This document shows, piece after piece, positions 2,433 to 30,886 of a DNA stretch of 49,193 bases. The stretch comes from a virus (Duplodnaviria > Heunggongvirae > Uroviricota > Caudoviricetes), in the IMG/VR virus record IMGVR_UViG_3300045988_148039. One strand, given 5' to 3'. Both the position numbers and the translations under genes were made by a program. The notes beneath the pieces are model-generated. The model was given only the letters and a program-made list of their open reading frames with translations, searched no databases and was not told the origin of the DNA. Each line of letters starts with the position of its first letter. Position 1 is the stretch's first letter.

Positions 2433-4289
2433 CTATATGGTTACGCCTTTACTTATAACTCTACGGCGTCTTCTACGTATACCTGACGAGTTCTGCACAT
2501 ACACATTACCTCGCATTTCCTGTTCAGCAAGCCAGTCAAAATTAGGGTTCAGAATTTCCATCGCGGCAGTTGCATAGTTACGGCAATCAAGAGGCTCGTT
2601 ACGCTCGTAGACTTTCACCCACTTTTCTTTTGTCTGCCCATTTTTATATTCAAATATTTTTTTCTCTGATAATAGCCCTTTAAAATAATCAGTATCATAT
2701 CCTCTGTCAGAATCTAATGGAAAATGCATATAACCAGGACCAGGATCATGTAGCTTAATTCGTGCCATGATGGTCCCTTTACCATCATCAACCCCCAAAT
2801 TAAACAACATAGCGCCTACACGGTTATTATTGCTTGGCTTTCCTATAAACGGTAAACCTACCCCACCACGACCTCTGATAGAATATATTCGCCTTGATTC
2901 TCGCGGCTTAGTAAAGCGATATACCTCTGTCGTAAAATGCCCACCAGAGTCAATACAAACGGAAGAAATCTGTAATTTTCGACCGTCACGAAATGACCAG
3001 CTACGGAGTAAGTATTCATCAAGTTGTTTCCAGACAACATCTTGTGCGGGATCGCCCGGAAATATTTTATATTCAATCCCCCATGATTCCTTACCTTTTC
3101 CCCAACCGACCAATTCACAAACTAAATACGTGTCCTGTACGTCAACACCAGCACTTAACAATAAAACATCATCTGGTAAAAACTCTTCAAACCTTATTCT
3201 GCGTTGCAACAAGTATTCAGGATCGATATCGTCTTTAGCATCCTCTTTCCATGGCTCACCCAGCTTAAGGTTAATAAACTCCATTAATCCATTTTTATCG
3301 CGGTTTCTGGTTGCTTCCGTAAATTCTTCAACCAGCTCTGACAATGCAACCCACGGGGAGTAAAGACTGTTAATATGAAAACCAACAATACCTTTAACTC
3401 CAGTATGTTCAGCTATCCATACCCCCTTCGCCAACCAATCAACGTCTGGTTTACCAGATCCGCGCATAATCCCGCCGCACTCACAGCACTCATATCTGGC
3501 CGTTTCCGGTAACGCCTCACCTGAATCGCTCTTATCCCATCTGACTTGCGACCATTTCATCACCTGCATGGTGCCACAACATGGGCAAGGAACATGGTAG
3601 TAACGCTGATCGGAGAGCTTAAACCACTTGTGGATTTTGCTCGTTTCCTCCAAAACAGGAGTAGAAACAAAAACTTTCTTACGATTATGAAAGTTGGTAG
3701 TACGCTGAATACCTAGTTTTAGTGGGTCGCCCTCCTGCGTCACACCGTAACGATCAATCTCATCAGCTAACAGTATTCGAATTGGCCTGGATGCAAGACC
3801 TGCTGGGGAATTAGCACCAACAAGTGCTATATATCCACCAGCGTAATGCTTCATACGTATAGTCGTGCTGGACTTTTTGGCTGCACCGCGCCCCTCTTTC
3901 CCTTCATGCAGCTTGTGTTTCAAACCAGGGGAATATTTGAACGTCGGATCAATACGCTCTTTTGAAAAAGCCTCAGCCGCCTCTACCGTTGGATAAATCA
4001 TCAACTGAGGAGATGGCTCCTGATCTGCAAAGTAACCCATAACATTTAGCTGTAATTCGGATTTACCAATTTGCGAGCTACATTGCATCACTACTGTTTC
4101 TGTATCAGCGTCACCAATAACATCCATTGGTTCACGCAAATATGGCACTCGGCTTGTACGCCACGGCCCTGGCTCTGGAGACGTTCCCGGCGCTACATGA
4201 CGATACTTATCAGCCCATTCGGAAACAGTTAGCCGTGATTTAGGGCGAAGCGCACGGAAAAAAGCGGTGCTCCATACTGTTTCGCCCAT
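2433..4289 (-). CDS. Terminase large subunit (lambda gpA-like)
   Basis: 618-aa ORF; N-terminal ...VSEWADKY... and overall layout resemble lambda A; followed by W-like and portal genes. Confidence 0.85.
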   Translation of the reverse strand: MGETVWSTAFFRALRPKSRLTVSEWADKYRHVAPGTSPEPGPWRTSRVPYLREPMDVIGDADTETVVMQCSSQIGKSELQLNVMGYFADQEPSPQLMIYPTVEAAEAFSKERIDPTFKYSPGLKHKLHEGKEGRGAAKKSSTTIRMKHYAGGYIALVGANSPAGLASRPIRILLADEIDRYGVTQEGDPLKLGIQRTTNFHNRKKVFVSTPVLEETSKIHKWFKLSDQRYYHVPCPCCGTMQVMKWSQVRWDKSDSGEALPETARYECCECGGIMRGSGKPDVDWLAKGVWIAEHTGVKGIVGFHINSLYSPWVALSELVEEFTEATRNRDKNGLMEFINLKLGEPWKEDAKDDIDPEYLLQRRIRFEEFLPDDVLLLSAGVDVQDTYLVCELVGWGKGKESWGIEYKIFPGDPAQDVVWKQLDEYLLRSWSFRDGRKLQISSVCIDSGGHFTTEVYRFTKPRESRRIYSIRGRGGVGLPFIGKPSNNNRVGAMLFNLGVDDGKGTIMARIKLHDPGPGYMHFPLDSDRGYDTDYFKGLLSEKKIFEYKNGQTKEKWVKVYERNEPLDCRNYATAAMEILNPNFDWLAEQEMRGNVYVQNSSGIRRRRRRVISKGVTI

Positions 4290-4294
4290 GAGGT

Positions 4295-4855
4295 TTATTC
4301 TTCCTGCTTAATAAATCGGGATTCCTGGAGCGCCTGAAGCGCAAAATTAATCTCGTCTTCAATAATGCGTTCGATCTCCCTGGCTGTTTTGCCTTCACAA
4401 CGGGGAGCTGCTCTTGGAGCAATACTAAATAAGCGGCTACGCAATTCATTAGCTGCCAGAAATGCATCATCCCTGACCGCATCTTTAGCGATGAGAGAGC
4501 CTTCCTTTTCTTCAAATTCAAGGCGTTTCAGCTTTGCCTGATAAATTTTTTCTGCGGTCTTAGCCTTGTTGAATTGCACCGCAACACCGGAAGTACCACC
4601 AGCTAATCCGGCATCATCAGCGGGTAACTCTGGTTGTTCCGAAGATATCCCATGCCCTCTTTTTCCGTTTTCAGCAGATACCTCACGACCAACCTGTCGG
4701 CTCGCTTCATAAGCCGCACTAGCTTTATCAAAATCCAGCTTGCCGCTTTTCAGCACTGGAATACGACCGGAACGACAGAGCTTCGTAACCATTGCCGGAG
4801 AAATACCTTTCCGGCGGGCAAACTCTGACTTACTAACGATGGCCATTACTTGCAA
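4295..4855 (-). CDS. Terminase small subunit (Nu1-like, N-terminal HTH)
   Basis: 186-aa ORF immediately upstream of the large terminase; N-terminal HTH-like segment SKSEFARRKGISPAMVTKLCRSGRIP. Confidence 0.6.
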   Translation of the reverse strand: MQVMAIVSKSEFARRKGISPAMVTKLCRSGRIPVLKSGKLDFDKASAAYEASRQVGREVSAENGKRGHGISSEQPELPADDAGLAGGTSGVAVQFNKAKTAEKIYQAKLKRLEFEEKEGSLIAKDAVRDDAFLAANELRSRLFSIAPRAAPRCEGKTAREIERIIEDEINFALQALQESRFIKQEE

Positions 4856-5436
4856 CCATTAGCAAGATACTGAACAAATCCCTCATGCGTTTCATGCGCG
4901 TCGTGGTACTGACGATAAACATCCAGCAACAATGCAATTTCCATATCCGTCGCGGGAATACGTTCTTTATCAATAGCCAGGTACTTAATTTGAACAACAG
5001 GGGAAGAATTATCGTCTTCTTCCCGCGGCTGTTCATCGCTTAACATTTCGTCAAGCTCTGCATCATTAAACCCAAGCAGATCAATATCAAAATCATCATC
5101 CATTAACTCTTTGACTTCTTCGGCCAGAAGCTGCATATCCCAACCAGCATTTAAGGCCAGCTTGTTATCTGCAATCCTGTAAGCCTTCTTCTGTTTTTCA
5201 GAAAGGTTACTCAACCGAATCGCCGGAACTTTATCCATTTCCAGAATTTCGGCTGCTGCAAGCCGACCATGCCCCGCAATCAGTTCATTCTTTTCATCGA
5301 TCAGCACAGGATTAGTGAAACCGAACTCACGGATACTGTTCACCAACTGTTCAACTTGCTCATCTGAATGAGTCCGTGAATTTTTGGCATATCTGAGCAG
5401 CTTACCGACTGGTAAATATTCGATTTTTAGAGCCAT
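4846..5436 (-). CDS. ParB-like nuclease domain protein (paralog 1)
   Basis: 196 aa; ParB N-terminal-domain-like region (...LIAGHGRLAAA...KKAYRIADNKLALNAGW...); overlaps the small terminase start. Confidence 0.65.
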   Translation of the reverse strand: MALKIEYLPVGKLLRYAKNSRTHSDEQVEQLVNSIREFGFTNPVLIDEKNELIAGHGRLAAAEILEMDKVPAIRLSNLSEKQKKAYRIADNKLALNAGWDMQLLAEEVKELMDDDFDIDLLGFNDAELDEMLSDEQPREEDDNSSPVVQIKYLAIDKERIPATDMEIALLLDVYRQYHDAHETHEGFVQYLANGCK

Positions 5437-12065: not shown

Positions 12066-12141
12066 TGGTGGCCCCTACCGGATTTGAACCGATGACCGTG
12101 CGATTATGAGTCGCCTGCTCTAACCACTAAGCTAAGGGGCC
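12066..12141 (-). tRNA. tRNA, anticodon CAT (Met, or lysidine-modified minor Ile2 given resemblance to E. coli ileX as I recall it)
   Basis: Reverse complement folds as a cloverleaf: 7-bp acceptor stem GGCCCCT/AGGGGCC, T-arm with TTCAAAT loop, anticodon loop CTCATAA, encoded 3' CCA. Confidence 0.8.
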
Positions 12142-17161: not shown

Positions 17162-18229
17162 TCAGGCTTTCAATAGCGATTCTTTCAGATATCGGGCATC
17201 AGCCAGGGCGTTTGGAGTAATCTTGCGAACCCATGCATTACGGGTTGGACTCCACTTAAAGGCGCGTGATTTAAGCAGCGAACGAATGTTTGCCTCTGGT
17301 TTGCCAGGGAAATAAAACAGGATGCGGTTATCCTCTGGATCTATCTCCATAGAAAAGCCGTCGTATTCTTCGCGCTGTGCTCCTGTTACAGACTTGACCG
17401 ATTCAAGCTCTTTAATACGGCTCTGTAGTCGTTTGATTTCGGCGTTATTGTTACTCAGTGAGTATGAAGGAAAGCCAATGTGCCCACAGAAATCTCCGGC
17501 CAGTAACTCTTTGGCTTCGCTTTCTGTAAACCTGAGATCGATTAATGCAGAAAGCTGCTGTAATTGGTCTTTTTTGTATTTGCGAATGACCTTATTTGCG
17601 GCCTTCATTTTGATGTGTGACTTCATGCAGCCTTGCAGCTTACGAAGCAACTTAAATAGCGCATCAGGATCATCAGACGAAACTCCATTACGGCCGACAC
17701 CTGCGGCTTTGCTCTCGTAGTGTGATGCTTTACTTTCGCATTCAACAAACGCTTTTCTGAATAACGCATCAGCTTTAGACAAACGGCGGCGATGGCCTTT
17801 CGCGCTATAATGGTCAACTAAAATCGGCTGGCCTAACGGGATCACATCCAACAGGTCATGCGCTCGCTTATGCGCCACCGCACCTTCTTTTCTGGCTTTT
17901 TCTGCACAAGCAATATATCGGGCAAGACGCGCGTTCTGGCGTTCCTGATAGGTATTTACGTAATCATCTCCGCGCTGCTGCTGTTCAAGCCATGCTTTGC
18001 GCAGCTTTTCTGTTACGTCTACCAACTCCGCAGGGATACAACCTGTTTGGGATTCATAAGAGTGACCATCCTCATAAAGACGTCCATCGTCTTCAACAAA
18101 GAAAAAGGTTTCGTGCTCATCGCTTTTGACCATACGGCCATTAACATGACGTAATCTATAGCCAGTATCAGTGCTTAACAGGCTGTTAGGGTTGTTGATC
18201 CAGTCAGAAATAATTACTTGTTTATTCAT
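17162..18229 (-). CDS. Hypothetical protein (first gene behind repeat cassette B)
   Basis: Start taken at internal ATG 18229 (MNKQVII...) preceded by GGAGA of the conserved leader; the longer ORF to 18283 would run into the leader. Confidence 0.5.
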   Translation of the reverse strand: MNKQVIISDWINNPNSLLSTDTGYRLRHVNGRMVKSDEHETFFFVEDDGRLYEDGHSYESQTGCIPAELVDVTEKLRKAWLEQQQRGDDYVNTYQERQNARLARYIACAEKARKEGAVAHKRAHDLLDVIPLGQPILVDHYSAKGHRRRLSKADALFRKAFVECESKASHYESKAAGVGRNGVSSDDPDALFKLLRKLQGCMKSHIKMKAANKVIRKYKKDQLQQLSALIDLRFTESEAKELLAGDFCGHIGFPSYSLSNNNAEIKRLQSRIKELESVKSVTGAQREEYDGFSMEIDPEDNRILFYFPGKPEANIRSLLKSRAFKWSPTRNAWVRKITPNALADARYLKESLLKA

Positions 18230-18235
18230 CAGATT

Positions 18236-18345
18236 TCTCCGGTTTAACCAGGGCGGGTATCGCTCGGTTTCGGGTATAACCATAGGAAATTTTTTCCCAC
18301 CTGTAAAGCACTTTTTTATATAAATCTATAATTATATATTTATAG
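18236..18345 (-). promoter_or_regulatory. Conserved promoter/leader cassette, copy B
   Basis: Near-identical to copies A and C; its AT-rich part extends into a longer near-palindrome ATCTATAATTATATATTTATAGAT. Confidence 0.7.
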
Positions 18346-23366: not shown

Positions 23367-23389
23367 TAAAAAAGGCCCCCGAAGGGGCC
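23367..23389 (-). terminator. Rho-independent terminator (GGCCCC-GAA-GGGGCC with run of T on the minus strand)
   Basis: Perfect GC hairpin preceded on the plus strand by AAAAAAA; read directly. Confidence 0.6.
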
Positions 23390-23395
23390 TAATCG

Positions 23396-23518
23396 CTACT
23401 TGCTGCTAATGTTTATCGTCACATTCAGAGCGTTATCAGTAATCTTCCAACCCTCCCCATGTGGCGTAAACAAAGCTCCAGTAACAACGATAAAAATACA
23501 CATACAGTATTTTTTCAT
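23396..23518 (-). CDS. Small hydrophobic peptide (about 40 aa)
   Basis: Internal ATG at 23518 gives MKKYCMCIFIVVTGALFTPHGEGWKITDNALNVTINISSK; terminator immediately downstream. Confidence 0.3.
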   Translation of the reverse strand: MKKYCMCIFIVVTGALFTPHGEGWKITDNALNVTINISSK

Positions 23519-23916
23519 TGTATGGCCCTTACAGGCCGTTTCACGGCATCCCCACCGACGAAAACAACGCGAGAGCAAGCACGGCTGCTTGTGCTTGCAT
23601 GTACGGCAACGGAGAATCCTCCCCTAAAGTCGGTGCCCGGGTGCGAATCGGCGGGAAGGTCCACAGGTATTTTACGATTATTTTAAGATTAGTAATAGGA
23701 AAGAAATTAAACGAAAAAACTCGTTTATTTTCACAAAATCAGTAACCTACCCACAATCTGTGAGTTTGCAGGCACAACAAGAACCACAATTTTTTGAAGC
23801 ATAATAGTGGACTATTATTACCTTTTGGGTAAAATTAACTTGCTGCTTGTGCTTGCGTGGTTGTTTATACAACAACGTAATGCTGAAAGGACCGCGAATC
23901 CGATCAGCACGAAAGA

Positions 23917-23943
23917 ACCGTCCTCAATAGGGCGGTTTTTTTG
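23917..23943 (+). terminator. Rho-independent terminator-like hairpin (ACCGTCCT-caat-AGGGCGGT then T7)
   Basis: Read directly in an ORF-poor region upstream of the antirepressor. Confidence 0.45.
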
Positions 23944-24034
23944 TTTCTGCCTACCAATAAACCCACGCTATGTGGTTGTCTCTGTTAAAATCCCGCCGTA
24001 TTGACATGAATGCGCCATTGGTGGACACTTTCCG

Positions 24035-24110
24035 AGCCGTAGCAAAATCTACGGTCGGGATTAGCCTCCTGAATAACACGATGGCGCATACCGCGTTAGC
24101 GGTTTTTTTA
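24035..24110 (+). ncRNA. Candidate small antisense RNA (immI/C4-like position upstream of the antirepressor)
   Basis: TTGACA at 24001..24006; about 75 nt with hairpin CCGTAG-caaaatc-TACGG and a 3' hairpin plus T-run at 24090..24109; GATTAGCCTC at 24058 recurs at 24224 next to the following ORF. Confidence 0.3.
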
Positions 24111-24235
24111 TGCGTAGAGCACTGTTACGCCCAAATTATGGTGGGTCGTACAGGGGCGGAGAAATCCGCGCCGGTTCGTCATTGTGTCCGGTAAGGCTAA
24201 CCCTGTACGGCTCACCACCATTTGATTAGCCTCGA

Positions 24236-24463
24236 ATGGCGGTGATAGTTCCATATACTGGAGATATCACAATGACAAACCTACCCCATGACTATTACGT
24301 CAACCTCGTAAAGATCCTTCTCAAGAAAGCCTCATACGCCGATAAATTCCGCCTGGCTGAAATCATCGAGCGCGAAGCTATGCGCATCGCCAGCAACGAT
24401 AACGCTGTTTCTGACGCAAAAATCTCCCTCGTAACCAAAGTAGTTATGGGAGGTGCAAAATGA
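24236..24463 (+). CDS. Small protein upstream of and overlapping the antirepressor start
   Basis: 75-aa ORF; stop overlaps the antirepressor ATG. Confidence 0.35.
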   Translation: MAVIVPYTGDITMTNLPHDYYVNLVKILLKKASYADKFRLAEIIEREAMRIASNDNAVSDAKISLVTKVVMGGAK

Positions 24464-25611
24464 AAACGCTTCGGACCGTTAACACCCTACAGCCTATCCT
24501 GCATAATCAGATTCCAGTAATCACAACTGAGCTACTCGCCCGCCTTTATGGAACAGAAGCAATCCGTATACAGCAAAATCACCATGAAAATAAAACTCGG
24601 TTCATTGAGGGGAAGCACTTCTTTAAAGCTGTTGGTGATGAACTCAAAAATTTGCGACTAGTTTTAAACGAGTCACAAAATGAGGTACAAATTTCCCCCA
24701 AAACTCGCTCTCTCATCCTCTGGACAGAACGTGGGGCTGCACGTCACGCTAAAATGCTCGAAACCGATCAGGCGTGGGATGTGTTCGAACGTCTGGAAGA
24801 CTGCTATTTCAGCCAGAACGCGCAAACGGCCGCGACCGTAACCGTCTCACCAAACAATGCTCGTGAGGTTGTCGATACGCTCAACGCCAAACCAATGTAT
24901 TACGTTAAGGTGTGCAACAACGAGCCACTCACAACCTCAGCCGATGTTGCCCAAGCATTCAGCACCACAAACAATTCCATCGTTATGGCCATCGATGCGT
25001 TACGCATTCCTCGCACGGCTGCGGCGCGTCACTTCTTTAAAGAACAACGACCGCTGGAAGGAAGCGACCGCGAAATAACAATCTATCGCATGACAAAAGA
25101 CGGATTTACCTTGCTCATGGAGAGTATCGACGGTCCAGGCGTGAAAGATATCAAGCTGGCCTACATTGAAGCCTTTAACGCTATCAGCAGCGTGTTAAAA
25201 ACACAGTACGAGCGTGATCTGGCTAAACGACTGTACCAGGAAAAAACGATTATCCGCGCGGCAACAGAGCATAATCGGCTATTAACGGAACCGAACTACA
25301 GGAAGGAACTAATAAAGGAGTTTGACAAGGCAACAGGGAAAACCAAAGCGGCGCTAAATCTGCCAGCAATGACTCAGGAAAATGTGATATCAGCCTTACT
25401 TCTTGATCTGCTCAGAAACGCCAGAGCACTTATCAGCTTTGACGAAAATCTGAACCCTCAGCTCAAACTACTACCACCGACAGGCAAAGTAGTCGACCAA
25501 GCTGATCACAACAGCATACTCAGCGTACTGGATGCAAACCTGCCAGCCAAGACACTACAGGAACTGATAAAAATATCTGCGGATAAACTGGCCGCAGGTG
25601 CAAAACCATAA
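24460..25611 (+). CDS. Antirepressor-like protein
   Basis: 383 aa; domain assignment (KilA-N/ORF6N-like N-terminus, Rha-like middle) is from memory of those families. Confidence 0.6.
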   Translation: MKTLRTVNTLQPILHNQIPVITTELLARLYGTEAIRIQQNHHENKTRFIEGKHFFKAVGDELKNLRLVLNESQNEVQISPKTRSLILWTERGAARHAKMLETDQAWDVFERLEDCYFSQNAQTAATVTVSPNNAREVVDTLNAKPMYYVKVCNNEPLTTSADVAQAFSTTNNSIVMAIDALRIPRTAAARHFFKEQRPLEGSDREITIYRMTKDGFTLLMESIDGPGVKDIKLAYIEAFNAISSVLKTQYERDLAKRLYQEKTIIRAATEHNRLLTEPNYRKELIKEFDKATGKTKAALNLPAMTQENVISALLLDLLRNARALISFDENLNPQLKLLPPTGKVVDQADHNSILSVLDANLPAKTLQELIKISADKLAAGAKP

Positions 25612-25645: not shown

Positions 25646-26281
25646 TTAATATTTCGGTGTAATCAGTAGCGATACATGCCCTGATTTGTCACGAGAAACG
25701 TAATACTCGCCTCTCTTAGTCTTGAACTCAGCTTTCTGCATATCAGATTTAACAATCTGCTCTAACTGCGCAATCACGGTGTCTCTTTCACTTGACGCAT
25801 CCAAGACTTCAACTGCTACGGCCATAGAAAGCAAGGAATCAGAGTTAGGCTTGGATACTCGCCATAATAACTCAGAAATCTTTCCATCCTTATCAACTCT
25901 AGCCCGACCGTTAACAGATGAGTTGATGGCAAATTCAACGGTGTTGTTACCTTGTTTAACAGACTTAATTCTTATAGTGGAGGTGGCTTTTCCTGATGTA
26001 GCGATGCCTTCAAGGTCATCATTATATAACTGCTTAAACTTATCTACGGTCACACCATCAAAAGCAGCTCCGGTGGTAGCCGTAGTGCTGGAGTCTTCTG
26101 GGATCAAGGTCACAGCCGCAAGAGTATTAACAACTACAAAAGTAGCAATCCCGAGAAAGCCACTCACTAAAACAGCTTTGAACCTACTACCAGAAGACGA
26201 GGCACATTGTTTCCGATATGCGCCACGAACTACGAAGAAACACAAAATCAGGCTAATAATAAACGCCACCAGCATCCCCAT
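25646..26281 (-). CDS. Membrane protein with two N-terminal transmembrane helices
   Basis: 211 aa; hydrophobic segments LVAFIISLILCFFVV and GFLGIATFVVVNTLAAVTLI, then a Ser/Thr-rich soluble domain. Confidence 0.5.
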   Translation of the reverse strand: MGMLVAFIISLILCFFVVRGAYRKQCASSSGSRFKAVLVSGFLGIATFVVVNTLAAVTLIPEDSSTTATTGAAFDGVTVDKFKQLYNDDLEGIATSGKATSTIRIKSVKQGNNTVEFAINSSVNGRARVDKDGKISELLWRVSKPNSDSLLSMAVAVEVLDASSERDTVIAQLEQIVKSDMQKAEFKTKRGEYYVSRDKSGHVSLLITPKY

Positions 26282-26343
26282 AGAAATCTCCTTTTAGATA
26301 TAAGGGTAAAGCAATATCGTATTAGATCTTCCTTTAGACACAA

Positions 26344-26357
26344 CCCCCCCTCCCCCC
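26344..26357. repeat. Homopolymeric tract CCCCCCCTCCCCCC
   Basis: Read directly, 63 to 76 bp upstream of the membrane-protein start codon. Confidence 0.8.
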
Positions 26358-26841
26358 ATACAGGGTGCCCTTTACCGGAGTTCCGGCCCCTTCTCAAAAG
26401 CATCAAAAAAAGCTCGAGATCGAGTACCGGAACTCATGCCACCAGATAGCTCCACATCGTTTCCAATGCTTCGCCGCCGTGTGCGCCCTGTGGCCCACAA
26501 TCATGCCATTGGTCGTCTGATATACCTTCTTCTGCTCATTGAGCACAGGCGAGTTGTCGCACTCCTGCCTTTCTCAGACTCGACTTAGTTTAGATCGCTG
26601 TTCCTGGCTTGCGTCAGCACACTTCCCCCTTGTACGCATACCCGCGCGCCACTTCGCCCAAAAACACCGAACCCAACGAAGTGGCAAAGACAACGACGCG
26701 AGCGTGAGTCTGAAATGGGCACCAGTAAAAAAGGGGTTGCAGGCGCAAAAAGATTTGATTATCTTTAGACGCAAGAAAGCCGCCCCAATCAAGAGGTGTC
26801 TTTTTAAATCCAGCCTACCAAGCAAGATTTAAATTTCAGAC

Positions 26842-26866
26842 TGAAAACCGCCCGGCAAGGCGGTTT
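26842..26866. terminator. Bidirectional terminator-like hairpin (AAAACCGCC-cggcaa-GGCGGTTTT)
   Basis: Perfect 9-bp stem flanked by an A-run and a T-run; downstream of the HTH gene. Confidence 0.6.
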
Positions 26867-26916
26867 TTGTCTTTCTGGCGCTTACATTACACCACCATAA
26901 AACGATCCGTAAAGGA

Positions 26917-27189
26917 TCATTTGATCCCTTGTTCCAATTCTGACGACACTTTAACCTTTTCCCATACAAGGGTTTGCAGCCTTAACAGAATCGCATCTTT
27001 ATCAAGGTGTGAAAGATCCTTAACCATATCGTCAAACGACAGAACGCGAATGGCCATCTCAATGACCCTCGGCGGCTCCCCCTTCTCATATCGCTTATAT
27101 GTAGCCAACGATATCCCAAATTCTTCGGCGGCTCGCTCCTGCGTCCAGTTCATCCCACGACGCCATAATTTCAATTCATAACCCGTCAT
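26917..27189 (-). CDS. XRE-family HTH regulator
   Basis: Start at ATG 27189 with GGAGG RBS; HTH segment WTQERAAEEFGISLATYKRYEKGE. Confidence 0.55.
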   Translation of the reverse strand: MTGYELKLWRRGMNWTQERAAEEFGISLATYKRYEKGEPPRVIEMAIRVLSFDDMVKDLSHLDKDAILLRLQTLVWEKVKVSSELEQGIK

Positions 27190-27218
27190 AGCATCCTCCG
27201 CGCACAATATTAACACTC

Positions 27219-27243
27219 GCAAAGTGTCAAAATGACACTTTGC
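27219..27243. promoter_or_regulatory. Perfect 11-bp inverted repeat GCAAAGTGTCA-aaa-TGACACTTTGC (candidate operator)
   Basis: Read directly about 30 bp upstream of the HTH gene start. Confidence 0.55.
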
Positions 27244-27252
27244 GCATTGTGT

Positions 27253-27633
27253 TTACTTAACGAGGAATAAAAATGGTTTATTGTTAGGCGGTGTAATCGG
27301 GGCTGGCTCGCTTTTGCTCATGCGATCAGTGTACCAGGCCAGCTCCTTGTCAAAGTAAGCCTGATTAAAATAGGCCATGAATGTAGTTTCAAATCCATAA
27401 CGACCGCTAATACGCAGCATCTGATTGCCGTTCTCTGTTTCCAGATATACCTGGGCACGTTCCTGATTCTCCTTCAGCCAGGTTAAAGCCTCGTCGCACG
27501 AGGACACACGATACTCATCATCGTAGCCGTCATCGATGCGGCTTGAAGAAGAACGGCAAATCACGCCAACAGAACCAGCCAGGATAGTTTGAATTTTAAG
27601 GAAAGCGTTTTTGCGGATTTTGATCATGCTCAT
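27253..27633 (-). CDS. Hypothetical protein (first gene behind repeat cassette C)
   Basis: 126-aa ORF; ATG preceded by GGAGA of the conserved leader. Confidence 0.45.
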   Translation of the reverse strand: MSMIKIRKNAFLKIQTILAGSVGVICRSSSSRIDDGYDDEYRVSSCDEALTWLKENQERAQVYLETENGNQMLRISGRYGFETTFMAYFNQAYFDKELAWYTDRMSKSEPAPITPPNNKPFLFLVK

Positions 27634-27640
27634 CGGGTTT

Positions 27641-27750
27641 TCTCCGGTTTAACCAGGGCGACTATCGCTCGGTTTCGGGTATAACCTTAGGAAATTTTTT
27701 CCCACCTGTAAAGCAGTTTTTATATAAATCTATAATTATATAATTCTATG
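27641..27750 (-). promoter_or_regulatory. Conserved promoter/leader cassette, copy C
   Basis: Differs from copy A at a handful of positions over about 105 bp; read directly. Confidence 0.7.
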
Positions 27751-29905: not shown

Positions 29906-30886
29906 TTAATGTTGGAGTGATTTCCAGGTCTTTCTTAGCCTGTTATAACGCTGCTCAACGAGGGAGCGTAAATATGCAAGGTCAGCTCCAGGATACATGC
30001 CATCAGCAAATTCCTGGCTAACCTCTCTAGTGATTTGATGACGAAGTTCGGCCTCTCCCTTTTCCCGAACAAGACGCGCAGCTCTCTCCGCTGCTTTCTG
30101 TTTTGCCTTTATCTCTCTGGCCGTCTTCCTCTGACGCCATACATTCTCCATCTGCTCCTGAATAACAATACGCTTATAATCAGCCTCCGTTATCGCTTTT
30201 TTAAGCCGTTCGCTATTCTTCGCATTGAAGTAATTAAGTTTCTGGCTAACCGCACGTCTCCATGCTTGTTCAGTAATACCAACGGTTTCCAGCAGTTGAT
30301 CACGAATCTCTATTTTCGCTGGCCAATACTGTTTATTCACCCGATCCCAGCGACGTTCATAATCAATAAAACCTAACGCTTTCAGTTGCGACAACGCCCT
30401 TGTACAGCGCGTTATAGACTTGTTCCCAGCTTCGGATACGGTAGACAGGCCGCAAAAATCAGCCAACGCCTCAGCACTAGCCAGAACCCGCTTAGAAATG
30501 ATGTTTACATGGTGCAAAATCGCAGCGATCACAGCATTAATCGCCCGACGACGATGCTCGTTTATCCGGCGCTTCCGCTCTGACGGTTGATTAACGTAGA
30601 ACGCAACCTCACACGTAAGATCACGCCCATTAATGCGCTGTAAAGCATCAGATAACACCAGCGGCAGCTTGTGCGTATGGTGCTTTGGAGGCTGGAACTC
30701 CGGCGACAAATTACAAACGTAAGCTGAACGTAGAGACGGCATTGGTCTATCCATATGTTCGCTCTTGCGTCCACGGAAAACCAACGTATAATGGGAGTTG
30801 TCGAGGCGCCCATGGATTGTTGTTGTTGGTTTTCCGTGGATGTCGCAAGAAGCCCGCAGATTTATCTGCGGGCTTTTTGTTTCCAT
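29906..30886 (-). CDS. repA: Plasmid replication initiator RepA (IncFII/RepFIIA-type); true start possibly internal (MDRPMPS, about 30754)
   Basis: Central segment NKSITRCTRALSQLKALGFIDYERRWD resembles R100/R1 RepA1 KLSITRATRALTFLSELGLITYQTEYD as I recall it; basic C-terminal half; length about 280 aa from the internal start. Confidence 0.7.
   Translation of the reverse strand: METKSPQINLRASCDIHGKPTTTIHGRLDNSHYTLVFRGRKSEHMDRPMPSLRSAYVCNLSPEFQPPKHHTHKLPLVLSDALQRINGRDLTCEVAFYVNQPSERKRRINEHRRRAINAVIAAILHHVNIISKRVLASAEALADFCGLSTVSEAGNKSITRCTRALSQLKALGFIDYERRWDRVNKQYWPAKIEIRDQLLETVGITEQAWRRAVSQKLNYFNAKNSERLKKAITEADYKRIVIQEQMENVWRQRKTAREIKAKQKAAERAARLVREKGEAELRHQITREVSQEFADGMYPGADLAYLRSLVEQRYNRLRKTWKSLQH

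What the first reader, a model, noticed from the sequence alone, without database searches (positions are those of the whole stretch)
26300..26870. ORF-poor GC-rich 0.5-kb stretch with hairpins
This stretch has no convincing ORF on either strand, is noticeably more GC-rich than its surroundings, and contains a 9-bp-stem hairpin GCCACTTCG...CGAAGTGGC and a perfect bidirectional terminator. It may encode an RNA or be a decayed gene.
Basis: seen in the sequence. Interest (0 to 1): 0.4.

Follow-up and report, generated by a model that had tools for sequence, protein, structure and literature searches.

The report
Hidden ColE1-type replication origin in phage-plasmid
The gene-free, hairpin-rich 0.55 kb is most likely a very divergent, unannotated ColE1-type plasmid replication origin, made of a long primer RNA and a short antisense control RNA, inside a 48-kb E. 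coli phage-plasmid that also has a RepA replicon; it is a known kind of element in an unusual place.

Summary
Window 26331-26920 has no conserved ORF, is richer in G+C than its flanks, and carries three perfect 9-bp hairpins where 0.09 are expected. It is the best-conserved DNA of the neighbourhood: 84-94% identity between the E. coli and Salmonella types, against 55-70% in the flanking genes. Substitutions preserve base-pairing only on the minus strand.

A covariance model built only from the last 140 nt before the origin of nine ColE1-type plasmids gives its best hit of the whole window here, on that strand (18.8 bits). It scores 29-38 bits (E 7e-5 to 3e-7) on the Salmonella-type and two metagenomic variants. 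Decoys reach at most 13.8 bits.

The 5' end resembles the ColE1 RNAII promoter and first hairpin. The opposite strand has a conserved promoter and a strong terminator for a ~100-nt RNA with three stem-loops that would overlap the long RNA's 5' end, as RNAI does.

Best reading: a ColE1-type RNA-primed origin. It is not a decayed gene.

The middle domain shows no ColE1 similarity, and Rfam's RNAI threshold is not met. Transcription and origin activity are untested. I rate it a new member of a known kind, of moderate-to-low interest.

The parts
26884..26918 (-). Putative RNAII-type promoter. Two GATC sites (26918-26915, 26907-26904), -35 TTTACG (26913-26908), and -10 TGgTGTAAT / TAATGT (26894-26884). 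It starts 4 nt after the stop codon of the HTH gene.
   Evidence: It aligns to the ColE1 RNAII promoter 'GGATCTTCTTGAGATC...GCGTAATCT' in the nhmmer hits. The hexamers are invariant between the E. coli and Salmonella types, and the only changes (26895-26898) fall in the spacer. A promoter-only HMM is not significant on its own, and the simple promoter scan found nothing.
26331..26878 (-). RNAII-like pre-primer RNA, about 505-545 nt. The predicted start is about 26876-26879. The 3' end, which would be the origin, lies within 26331-26374.
   Evidence: The RNAalifold consensus on the minus strand scores -164.8 kcal/mol with 29 of 36 variable pairs kept. On the plus strand it scores -113.5 with 7 of 16 kept. 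The ColE1 3'-domain model R1 hits 26502-26367(-).
26737..26765 (+). Putative RNAI-type promoter: TTGCAG, a 17-nt spacer, then TATCTT.
   Evidence: This is read directly from the sequence. Both hexamers are invariant in all variants, and the two E. coli/Salmonella differences (26746, 26753) lie in the spacer. It is a weak match to the consensus and was not reported by the simple scan.
26772..26874 (+). RNAI-like antisense RNA, about 100 nt, with three stem-loops. It would be complementary to the first ~100 nt of the long RNA.
   Evidence: It folds into three stem-loops in the E. coli, Salmonella and L012 variants (z -3.7 to -4.0), as real RNAI of pMB1 and L057 does. The Rfam RNAI match is weak: 18.1 bits against a gathering score of 47. 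Substitutions cluster in the middle stem-loop (26812-26833).
26844..26867 (.). It would be the terminator of the RNAI-like RNA on the + strand and the first stem-loop of the RNAII-like RNA on the - strand.
   Evidence: I11. It aligns to the ColE1 RNAI terminator / RNAII stem-loop I.
26648..26685 (-).
   Evidence: Four of its 13 pairs show changes on both sides. The A.C mismatches seen on the + strand read as G.U on the - strand. One metagenomic variant (L050) lacks it cleanly, together with the next hairpin.
26618..26633 (-). G-run ACAAGGGGGAAGUGUG in the most conserved part of the block, about 250-290 nt upstream of the inferred origin.
   Evidence: The sequence is, and the 94%-identity stretch is. 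Its position resembles the G-rich loop of ColE1 RNAII at -265. This is an inference only, because the middle-domain model R3 found no similarity.
26454..26469 (-). GGAAAC-loop hairpin (helix 19), counterpart of ColE1 CCAGGGGGAAACGCCUGG.
   Evidence: Two pairs change on both sides (A-U to G-C and U-A to C-G). It is aligned to the ColE1 hairpin by nhmmer and by both covariance models.
26378..26435 (-). Long hairpin just before the origin (helix 20; 9-bp perfect core GAGUUCCGG / CCGGAACUC), counterpart of ColE1 GGGUUUCGCC...GGCGGAGCC.
   Evidence: I7. One search gives 20 pairs, 100% paired, four of them with G.U-type changes. Searches align it to the ColE1 hairpin.
26331..26374 (-). Inferred origin zone (RNA-to-DNA switch). 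Candidate (i) is UAAAG at 26374-26370, by alignment to ColE1 'AUGGAAAAAC'. Candidate (ii) is AAAGG at 26335-26331, where conservation stops. Between them lies a G6AG7 run (C7TC6 on the + strand, 26344-26357).
   Evidence: Model R1 ends at 26367. The conserved block ends at 26331 regardless of which gene lies to the left. The role of the G-run is inferred.

Best explanation
The block (about 26331-26920) is a divergent ColE1-type, RNA-primed (theta) replication origin.

Inferred mechanism, by analogy with ColE1:
- A sigma-70 promoter just past the stop codon of the HTH gene drives a non-coding pre-primer RNA of about 510-545 nt on the minus strand (RNAII-like).
- This RNA folds into a conserved multi-hairpin structure.
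- Its G-rich 3' part stays hybridised to the C-rich template. RNase H cuts it at an A-run, and DNA polymerase I extends it. No plasmid-encoded initiator is needed.
- From the plus strand, a ~100-nt RNA with three stem-loops (RNAI-like) runs from a promoter at 26737-26765 to the strong terminator at 26844-26876. It is fully complementary to the 5' end of the pre-primer and would set copy number and incompatibility by kissing-loop pairing.

Shown here: conservation, strand-specific structure, and sequence-plus-structure homology of the pre-origin domain to ColE1-type origins.

Inferred only: transcription, RNase H / Pol I priming, origin activity, and how this origin shares the work with the IncFII-like RepA replicon of the same phage-plasmid.
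For: 1. Selection on non-coding DNA. The block is 84-94% identical between the E. coli-type and Salmonella-type elements, while the flanking genes are 55-70% identical. It has a sharp left border at 26331 whatever the left neighbour is.

2. Strand-specific RNA structure. On the minus strand 29 of 36 variable pairs stay canonical; on the plus strand 7 of 16 do. The consensus energies are -164.8 and -113.5 kcal/mol. Covariation exceeds all 500 shuffles and all slid controls, and two helices carry double compensatory changes.

3. Homology of the 3' domain. Model R1 was built only from nine ColE1-type plasmids (last ~140 nt before the origin). Its best hit in the 49-kb window is 26502-26367(-), full length, 18.8 bits, E about 0.008. 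On other variants of the block it scores 28.8-37.9 bits, E 7e-5 to 3e-7. Decoys reach 13.8 bits or less.

4. Reciprocal search. Model R2, built from the block, has its best match on all nine ColE1 loci at their pre-origin domain.

5. The 5' end. An nhmmer profile of the ColE1 RNAII promoter plus first hairpin hits 26924-26844(-) at 23.8 bits, E 8e-7. The full-origin profile gives E 4e-6. The two hits lie on the same strand, in the same order, and at ColE1-like spacing.

6. Collinear short matches. Near-diagonal matches to ColE1 origins number 55, against a mean of 21.9 and a maximum of 48 in shuffles.

7. The antisense RNA. It folds into three stem-loops in three variants, as real RNAI does. 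Both promoters keep their hexamers and change only in the spacers.

8. Distribution. The block is in 72 and the repA gene in 71 of 5426 complete E. coli genomes, so it is a fixed part of this element.
Against: - The middle ~250 nt show no detectable ColE1 similarity. Model R3 gives no hit in the window or in the variants.
- Rfam RNAI scores 18.1 bits against a gathering score of 47 in the window, and gives nothing in the Salmonella-type copies.
- About 14-16 of the 23.8 bits at the 5' end come from a generic terminator-like hairpin. An unrelated terminator at 23910-23948 scores 14 bits. The promoter alone is not significant.
- The window's own R1 score is modest, and the E-values are rough.
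- Both predicted promoters are weak matches, and the simple scan found none.
- Nothing conserved lies downstream of the inferred origin, so there is no primosome-assembly-site counterpart.
- The element already has an IncFII-like RepA and a primase-like protein, so a third route to replication is not obviously needed.
- Only two to four sequence clades exist, so the covariation rests on few independent events.
- There are no expression or replication data.
Confidence: 0.75

Rival explanations
1. The block descends from a ColE1-type origin (for example from an old cointegration with a small plasmid) but no longer fires as an origin. It would be kept for another use of the sense/antisense RNA pair, such as regulating neighbouring genes or excluding related replicons.
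For: - The middle domain is not ColE1-like.
- The element has its own RepA replicon and partition genes.
- In the window the long RNA would run straight into the ribosome-binding site of the 211-aa membrane-protein gene.
- Published work notes that it is unknown whether ColE1 origins remain functional in large cointegrates (PMC8683028).
Against: - The pre-origin domain, which matters only for priming, is the part that keeps ColE1 sequence and structure.
- The block is conserved whatever lies downstream; the 211-aa gene is absent in pO145_122715_2 and in the Yersinia phages.
- The whole 590 bp is under strong constraint.
Confidence: 0.12
2. The block encodes a large structured non-coding RNA of a new kind on the minus strand, with a function unrelated to replication (for example anti-defence or regulation). 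Its resemblance to ColE1 would be convergent or due to chance.
For: - There is strong strand-specific structural conservation.
- No Rfam family matches above threshold.
- The middle half has no known relative.
Against: - R1 scores of 29-38 bits on several variants, full length and at the same place, are hard to ascribe to chance.
- The antisense partner, the lengths, the order of landmarks and the promoter resemblance all fit ColE1.
Confidence: 0.07
3. The block acts as DNA rather than RNA. It could be a packaging (pac/cos) site, a recombination site (a cer-like Xer site), or an iteron- or transcription-activated origin.
For: - It is non-coding, conserved and rich in palindromes.
- TGCGTACAA at 26632-26640 (- strand) resembles the XerC arm of cer (my own recollection of the cer sequence).
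Against: - Substitutions preserve G.U pairs on one strand only, which is a signature of RNA and not of duplex DNA.
- No XerD-arm counterpart follows the XerC-like half-site (read from the sequence).
- There are no direct repeats of iteron type.
- The terminase genes lie more than 22 kb away.
Confidence: 0.04
4. The block is a decayed protein-coding gene.
For: Mechanical ORFs of 83-97 aa exist.
Against: - These ORFs start with TTG and are broken or absent in the Salmonella-type copies.
- The block is more conserved than the intact genes around it, the opposite of a pseudogene.
- Whole-hairpin deletions are tolerated.
Confidence: 0.01

Closest known systems
ColE1 / pMB1 / p15A-type origins (RNAII pre-primer plus RNAI antisense RNA; 'ColRNAI' replicons)
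   Same: - The layout matches: a long non-coding primer RNA of about 510-545 nt (555 nt in ColE1) and a ~100-nt antisense RNA (108 nt in ColE1) with three stem-loops covering its 5' end.
- The antisense terminator doubles as the primer's first hairpin.
- The promoter carries two GATC sites and a GTAATxT -10.
- The last ~140 nt before the origin are homologous in sequence and structure: GCGCAC, the GGAAAC-loop hairpin, the long terminal hairpin, the U-run plus GAUGCU, a G-run, and an A-run.
   Different: - Overall identity is too low for blastn; neither search finds the other.
- The middle domain is unrelated.
- RNAI falls below the Rfam threshold.
- MOB-suite typing as given by PLSDB assigns no replicon to these plasmids.
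- An extra G6AG7 run follows the homology-inferred origin.
- No rop or mob genes are nearby.
- The host molecule is a 48-kb phage-plasmid rather than a small multicopy plasmid.
ColE1 origins embedded in large cointegrate plasmids (Ares-Arroyo et al. 2021, PMC8683028)
   Same: A ColE1-type origin shares a large replicon with a Rep-protein replicon. That paper found 64 of 1,035 ColE1 plasmids to be larger than 25 kb, many with IncF, IncC or IncN partners, and with origins that had gone unnoticed.
   Different: - Those cointegrates carry canonical origins, flanked by transposons or IS elements and by ColE1 cargo such as rop, colicin and resistance genes.
- Here only a bare ~590-bp origin cassette is present. 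It is highly diverged and fixed in a phage-plasmid lineage, and no transposase or mob gene is annotated within 6 kb on either side.
Dual-origin phage-plasmids such as P1 (oriR/RepA for the plasmid state, oriL/RepL for lytic growth)
   Same: The element is a temperate phage maintained as a plasmid, with more than one replication determinant and a P1-like immI module (c4 RNA, isrK and ant).
   Different: Both P1 origins depend on phage-encoded initiators. The extra origin proposed here would use host enzymes only. Whether it serves lytic growth is unknown.
Mitochondrial CSBII / R-loop-primed origins (my own knowledge)
   Same: The RNA carries a G6AG7 run almost identical in form to human mtDNA CSBII (G5-6AG7-8). 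There the G-rich RNA forms a very stable hybrid or quadruplex with the template and yields the replication primer.
   Different: There is no homology, only a shared sequence form. Here the run lies 13-30 nt beyond the position that aligns with the ColE1 origin, and its role is untested.

Membership tests
ColE1-type RNA-primed origin | The pre-origin (3') domain of RNAII is homologous in sequence and secondary structure | tested here: met
   Model R1, built from nine ColE1-type plasmids, scores 18.8 bits on the window (its best hit, at the right strand and place). It scores 16.9-37.9 bits on all other variants, with E down to 3e-7. Decoys reach 13.8 bits or less. The reciprocal model R2 hits all nine ColE1 loci at the homologous place.
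ColE1-type RNA-primed origin | An RNAII promoter and first stem-loop lie about 500-555 nt upstream of the origin on the same strand | tested here: inconclusive
   nhmmer gives 23.8 bits, E 8e-7, at 26924-26844(-). However, 14-16 of those bits come from a generic terminator-like hairpin, and the promoter-only profile is not significant. Position, strand, GATC pair and conserved hexamers all fit.
ColE1-type RNA-primed origin | The central domain of RNAII (including the G-rich loop near -265) is homologous | tested here: not met
   Model R3 (ColE1 -300 to -140) gives no hit in the block, in the window or in seven variants. Only a G-run at a similar distance is seen by eye.
ColE1-type RNA-primed origin | An antisense RNA of about 100 nt with three stem-loops is complementary to the 5' end of RNAII | tested here: met
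   This is predicted only. A conserved promoter (26737-26765) and a + strand terminator bound a 103-nt RNA that folds into three stem-loops in three variants, as real RNAI does. No expression data exist.
ColE1-type RNA-primed origin | Replication is independent of a plasmid initiator protein and depends on RNase H and DNA polymerase I | not testable with these tools
   This needs a replication assay of the isolated fragment in polA and rnhA backgrounds.
ColE1-type RNA-primed origin | A primosome assembly site lies downstream of the origin | tested here: not met
   Conservation stops at 26331, within 40 nt of the inferred origin, and the downstream DNA differs between relatives. No specific search for a pas motif was made.
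Rfam RF00106 (RNAI) | A score at or above the curated gathering threshold (47 bits) | tested here: not met
   The score is 18.1 bits at 26797-26870(+). There is no match at E<=10 in three Salmonella-type or metagenomic variants.
Known large structured RNAs in Rfam (GOLLD, ROOL, OLE, group I/II introns, and others) | A match to any Rfam 15 covariance model | tested here: not met
   There is no match in 26200-27000 beyond terminator-driven noise.
Protein-coding gene or pseudogene | An ORF conserved in relatives, or decay relative to its neighbours | tested here: not met
   ORFs are not conserved. There are 1-nt indels between relatives. The block is more conserved than the neighbouring genes.

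The most novel reading that the evidence does not exclude
The ColE1-type origin is the phage's switchable 'copy-up' or lytic origin. In the plasmid state RepA/ParA keep the copy number low while the RNAI-like RNA holds the primer in check. On induction, read-through from the HTH operon, which ends 4 nt before the primer promoter, would swamp the antisense control. A CSBII-like G6AG7 run would lock the R-loop, so that host Pol I and RNase H amplify the phage genome with no phage initiator. This would be the first natural phage known to use ColE1-style priming.
Probability: 0.15. Interest if true: 0.6.

Novelty: new member of a known kind. Interest (0 to 1): 0.33.

Why it matters
- About 1.3% of complete E. 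coli genomes (72 of 5426) carry this 48-kb phage-plasmid, as do some Salmonella, E. fergusonii, E. albertii and Klebsiella plasmids and three Yersinia pestis phages.
- Its origin cassette is annotated nowhere. It escapes blastn, the Rfam thresholds and MOB-suite replicon typing.
- If the origin is active, it bears on several things: copy number, incompatibility with small ColE1-type plasmids of the same RNAI specificity, how the element replicates after induction, and how phage-plasmids assemble replication modules.
- It also shows that ColE1-type origins can diverge until only the pre-origin domain is recognisable, which is useful for replicon-typing tools.
- It is not a new principle. The mechanism is the textbook ColE1 one.

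Tried and rejected
- Rfam at gathering and permissive thresholds found only terminator-driven noise in the block.
- An 18-mer scan of genome contigs returned 17 hits, about the number expected by chance (1.2e12 positions / 4^18 ≈ 17). None matched the block profile in nhmmer, so there were no new homologues.
- A metagenome scan gave 14 further copies. These added only the L046, L050 and L054 variants, and none was more than 12% diverged.
- Distant relatives of the neighbouring 126-aa protein (47% identity, L021-L024) lack both the HTH gene and the block, so they did not help.
- A simple Smith-Waterman comparison with pMB1 placed its best alignment at the analogous place, but the score was within the shuffle range.
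- The promoter-only HMM was not significant.
- The middle-domain covariance model gave no hit.
- Ideas considered and dropped:
  - Retron or other RT-associated RNA: I recognised no reverse transcriptase among the neighbouring genes I annotated, though I did not scan every ORF.
  - cer-like Xer site: only a XerC-like half-site is present.
  - 5' UTR of the 211-aa gene: that gene is absent in relatives that keep the block.
  - Pseudogene: see the rival explanations.
- Literature: no paper in the library links phage-plasmids with a ColE1-type origin. The vB_YpM_HQ103 paper concerns an unrelated 32-kb phage. The plasmid copy-number paper has no supplements held.

Full report
**Context.** The window is a ~48-kb temperate phage that lives as a plasmid (a phage-plasmid).
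- It carries portal, large terminase, tail, holin and endolysin genes, and a CI-like repressor.
- It has a P1-like immunity module: isrK, c4 antisense RNA and ant.
- It has ParA/ParB-like genes, a HigB/HigA-like pair, a Hin-type invertase and an IncFII-family RepA at 29906-30886.
- Near-identical elements are circular 46-52-kb plasmids in 72 of 5426 complete E. coli genomes.
- Related copies occur in Salmonella, E. fergusonii, E. albertii and Klebsiella plasmids and in three Yersinia pestis phages, vB_YpM_39/41/44.

**The observation.**
- The 9-bp hairpin lies at 26648-26656 / 26677-26685.
- The A-run / hairpin / T-run lies at 26844-26867.
- A third perfect 9-bp hairpin lies at 26378-26386 / 26427-26435.
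- Three such stems are seen where 0.087 are expected.
- G+C is 0.49-0.54, against 0.42-0.46 in the flanks.
- The only ORFs are mechanical: at most 97 aa, with TTG starts. They are broken or replaced in the Salmonella-type copies, which differ by 1-nt indels.
- No annotator has placed a gene here.

**Constraint on non-coding DNA.**
- In a window-versus-Salmonella alignment the block from about 26340 to 26930 is 84-94% identical. The genes on either side are 55-70% identical.
- The left border is sharp at 26331 (…CCTT-N1-3-GACACAACCCCCCCTCCCCCC…). It stays the same whether the neighbour is a 211-aa membrane-protein gene (the window), a terminator directly after ant (pO145_122715_2), or a small ORF (the Yersinia phages).
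- The block therefore behaves as a self-contained module.
- It is present in 72 E. coli genomes and the repA gene in 71. More distant relatives of the phage lack it.

**Which strand?** I collected 25 distinct copies from plasmids, viral contigs and metagenomes. They fall into an E. coli type (98-100% identity) and several types at 88-90% (L003, L004, L012, L046, L050). I aligned 13 of them (A2).
These are canonical or G.U pairs on the minus strand but A.C mismatches on the plus strand.
- RNAalifold gives -164.8 kcal/mol on the minus strand (covariation term 3.96), with 29 of 36 variable pairs remaining canonical. On the plus strand it gives -113.5 kcal/mol (0.19), with 7 of 16 remaining canonical.
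- For the minus-strand structure, 99.7% of cells are paired and 6 pairs have changes on both sides. The covariation score of 0.082 exceeds all 500 shuffles, and slid controls give at most 0.031.
- One metagenomic copy lacks helices 9 and 10 cleanly.
- Caveat: few independent lineages exist, so the covariation rests on few events.

**What kind of RNA?** Rfam finds nothing above threshold. The anatomy suggested ColE1:
- a long minus-strand RNA whose first hairpin is the complement of a strong plus-strand terminator;
- a plus-strand promoter-like pair (TTGCAG-17-TATCTT, 26737-26765) about 100 nt upstream of that terminator;
- a minus-strand promoter-like pair just upstream of the hairpin;
- a G-rich 3' end.

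I fetched nine diverse ColE1-type origins (62-81% identical to one another) and tested three parts separately.

*The 5' end.*
- A profile of the nine full origins hits the window best at 26946-26840(-), E 4e-6.
- It aligns GGATCTTCTTGAGATC…GCGTAATCT…AAAAAACCGCC…GGTGGTTTT with TGATCCTTTACGGATC…GTGTAATGT…CAAAAACCGCC…GGCGGTTTT.
- A profile restricted to promoter plus first hairpin gives 23.8 bits, E 8e-7.
- The hairpin alone gives 14-16 bits, an unrelated terminator at 23910-23948 gives 14, and the promoter alone is not significant.
- This end is therefore supportive but not decisive.

*The 3' domain.*
- Covariance model R1 was built only from the last ~140 nt before the ColE1 origin (A3).
- Run without filters over both strands of the whole window, its best hit is 26502-26367(-), full length, 18.8 bits, E about 0.008. 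The next-best hit has E 0.79.
- On the other variants of the block it scores 30.6 (L003, L004), 28.8 (L012), 32.2 (L050) and 37.9 bits (L046, E 3e-7). The hit is always full length and at the homologous place. About 80 kb of decoy DNA reaches 13.8 bits at most.
- The aligned landmarks are GCGCAC, the GGAAAC-loop hairpin, the long terminal hairpin (GGGUUUCGCC…GGCGGAGCC against GAGUUCCGG…CCGGAACUC), a U-run plus GAUGCU, a G-run, and the A-run of the origin (AUGGAAAAAC against CGGUAAAGGGC).
- The reciprocal model R2, built from the block, places its best match on all nine ColE1 loci in their pre-origin domain. The scores are 8.6-16.7 bits and the best decoy scores 12.9.
- Short collinear matches to ColE1 origins are enriched: 55 against a mean of 21.9 and a maximum of 48 in shuffles.

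*The middle domain.* Model R3 (ColE1 -300 to -140) finds nothing in the block. This part has either diverged beyond recognition or been replaced.

**The antisense RNA.**
- The predicted 103-nt plus-strand RNA (26772-26874) folds into three stem-loops in the E. coli, Salmonella and L012 versions, with z-scores of -3.7 to -4.0. RNAI of pMB1 and of L057 folds the same way.
- Substitutions between clades cluster in its middle stem-loop (26812-26833). In ColE1-type plasmids the loops are where incompatibility specificity resides (my own knowledge).
- Both promoters keep their hexamers, and the only differences between clades lie in the spacers.
- Rfam's RNAI model stays far below threshold.

**Mechanism.** The inferred steps are as set out under the best explanation: primer transcription from about 26877, antisense control over the primer's first ~100 nt, R-loop formation, RNase H cleavage and Pol I extension.
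- Homology places the RNA-to-DNA switch at about 26370-26374.
- Conservation continues through a G6AG7 run (26344-26357) to AAAGG at 26335-26331, where it stops abruptly. In the ColE1 family conservation also stops at the origin.
- The switch could therefore lie at either site. In the second case the G-run would play the '-20 G-rich' role, and the primer would be about 545 nt long (555 nt in ColE1).

**Comparison and novelty.**
- The pre-origin domain meets a membership test for ColE1-type origins. The central domain, the Rfam RNAI threshold and a downstream primosome site do not.
- I therefore file it as a divergent member of the kind, identified by homology of one domain plus overall architecture, with biochemical membership untested.
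- ColE1 origins inside large plasmids are already known (PMC8683028). Those are canonical origins brought in by transposons together with ColE1 cargo.
- Canonical ColE1 origins in phage records appear mostly in engineered, vector-like or very short (1.5-5 kb) records.
- The library holds no paper linking phage-plasmids with such an origin.
- The context is thus unusual, but the mechanism is textbook.

**Limits.**
- There are no transcription or replication data.
- E-values from the shortened calibration are rough.
- The nine ColE1 sequences are related to one another, so their nine reciprocal hits count as one observation.
- Only a few lineages of the block exist.
- The element also has RepA and a primase-like protein, so the division of labour between replication functions is open.

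Noticed in passing
window 23368-23664 (-): A full-length match to the ryfA RNA family (142 bits, gathering score 80) sits on the phage-plasmid, next to the partition genes. In Salmonella, ryfA encodes the small toxin TimP of a type I toxin-antitoxin pair (my own knowledge). It may act as a plasmid addiction module here.
   Followed up: no
window 24036-25611 (+): This is a P1-like immI module: isrK (24036-24109), c4 antisense RNA (24134-24222), a 75-aa ORF, and an ORF6N+Rha antirepressor (24460-25611). The Salmonella-type copies also match the c4 target model c4-a1b1 just below threshold.
   Followed up: partly
window 27218-27244: A perfect 27-bp palindrome, CGCAAAGTGTCAAAATGACACTTTGCG, overlaps the mechanical TTG start (27222) of the HTH ORF 26917-27222(-); if translation starts at the ATG at 27187-27189 (as annotated in relatives), it lies ~30 nt upstream of the start codon. 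It is likely this protein's operator. Transcription from here would read into the primer promoter of the origin block.
   Followed up: no
window 27586-27734: A second island of conserved non-coding DNA lies upstream of the 126-aa gene. It is 88% identical between the E. coli and Salmonella types, where the flanking genes are 55-70% identical. A 30-nt piece (27720-27749) also matches elsewhere in the Salmonella plasmid in inverted orientation.
   Followed up: no
window 26344-26357: A C7TC6 run (G6AG7 in the minus-strand RNA) has almost the same form as human mitochondrial CSBII. It is nearly invariant (one copy has a single G-to-U change) and lies between the homology-inferred origin and the end of the conserved block.
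   Followed up: partly
L050:248-758 and L054:2418-2956 (metagenomic copies of the block): These are natural deletion variants. L054 lacks 22 nt (columns 303-324). Both keep the 5' and 3' domains, so the central part is dispensable or plastic.
   Followed up: partly
window 17162-18283 (-): A 373-aa protein has a C-terminal half that matches a phage primase family (phrog_19458, 1.2e-35). It could be a phage replication protein and is relevant to which origin serves lytic growth.
   Followed up: no
window 12066-12141 (-): The phage-plasmid carries a tRNA-Met (CAU) gene.
   Followed up: no
L001 (NZ_CP020518.1) 4270-5412: In this otherwise 99.6%-identical plasmid the ant gene is annotated as two pseudogene fragments (an ORF6N part and a Rha part). 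An extra 141-aa gene lies between the HTH gene and the 126-aa gene (L001 7092-7517).
   Followed up: no
window 25646-26281 (-): The 211-aa predicted membrane protein (phrog_23465, no Pfam match) directly downstream of the origin block is a variable cargo gene. It is absent in pO145_122715_2 and in the Yersinia phages. In the window, read-through primer RNA would run into its ribosome-binding site.
   Followed up: partly
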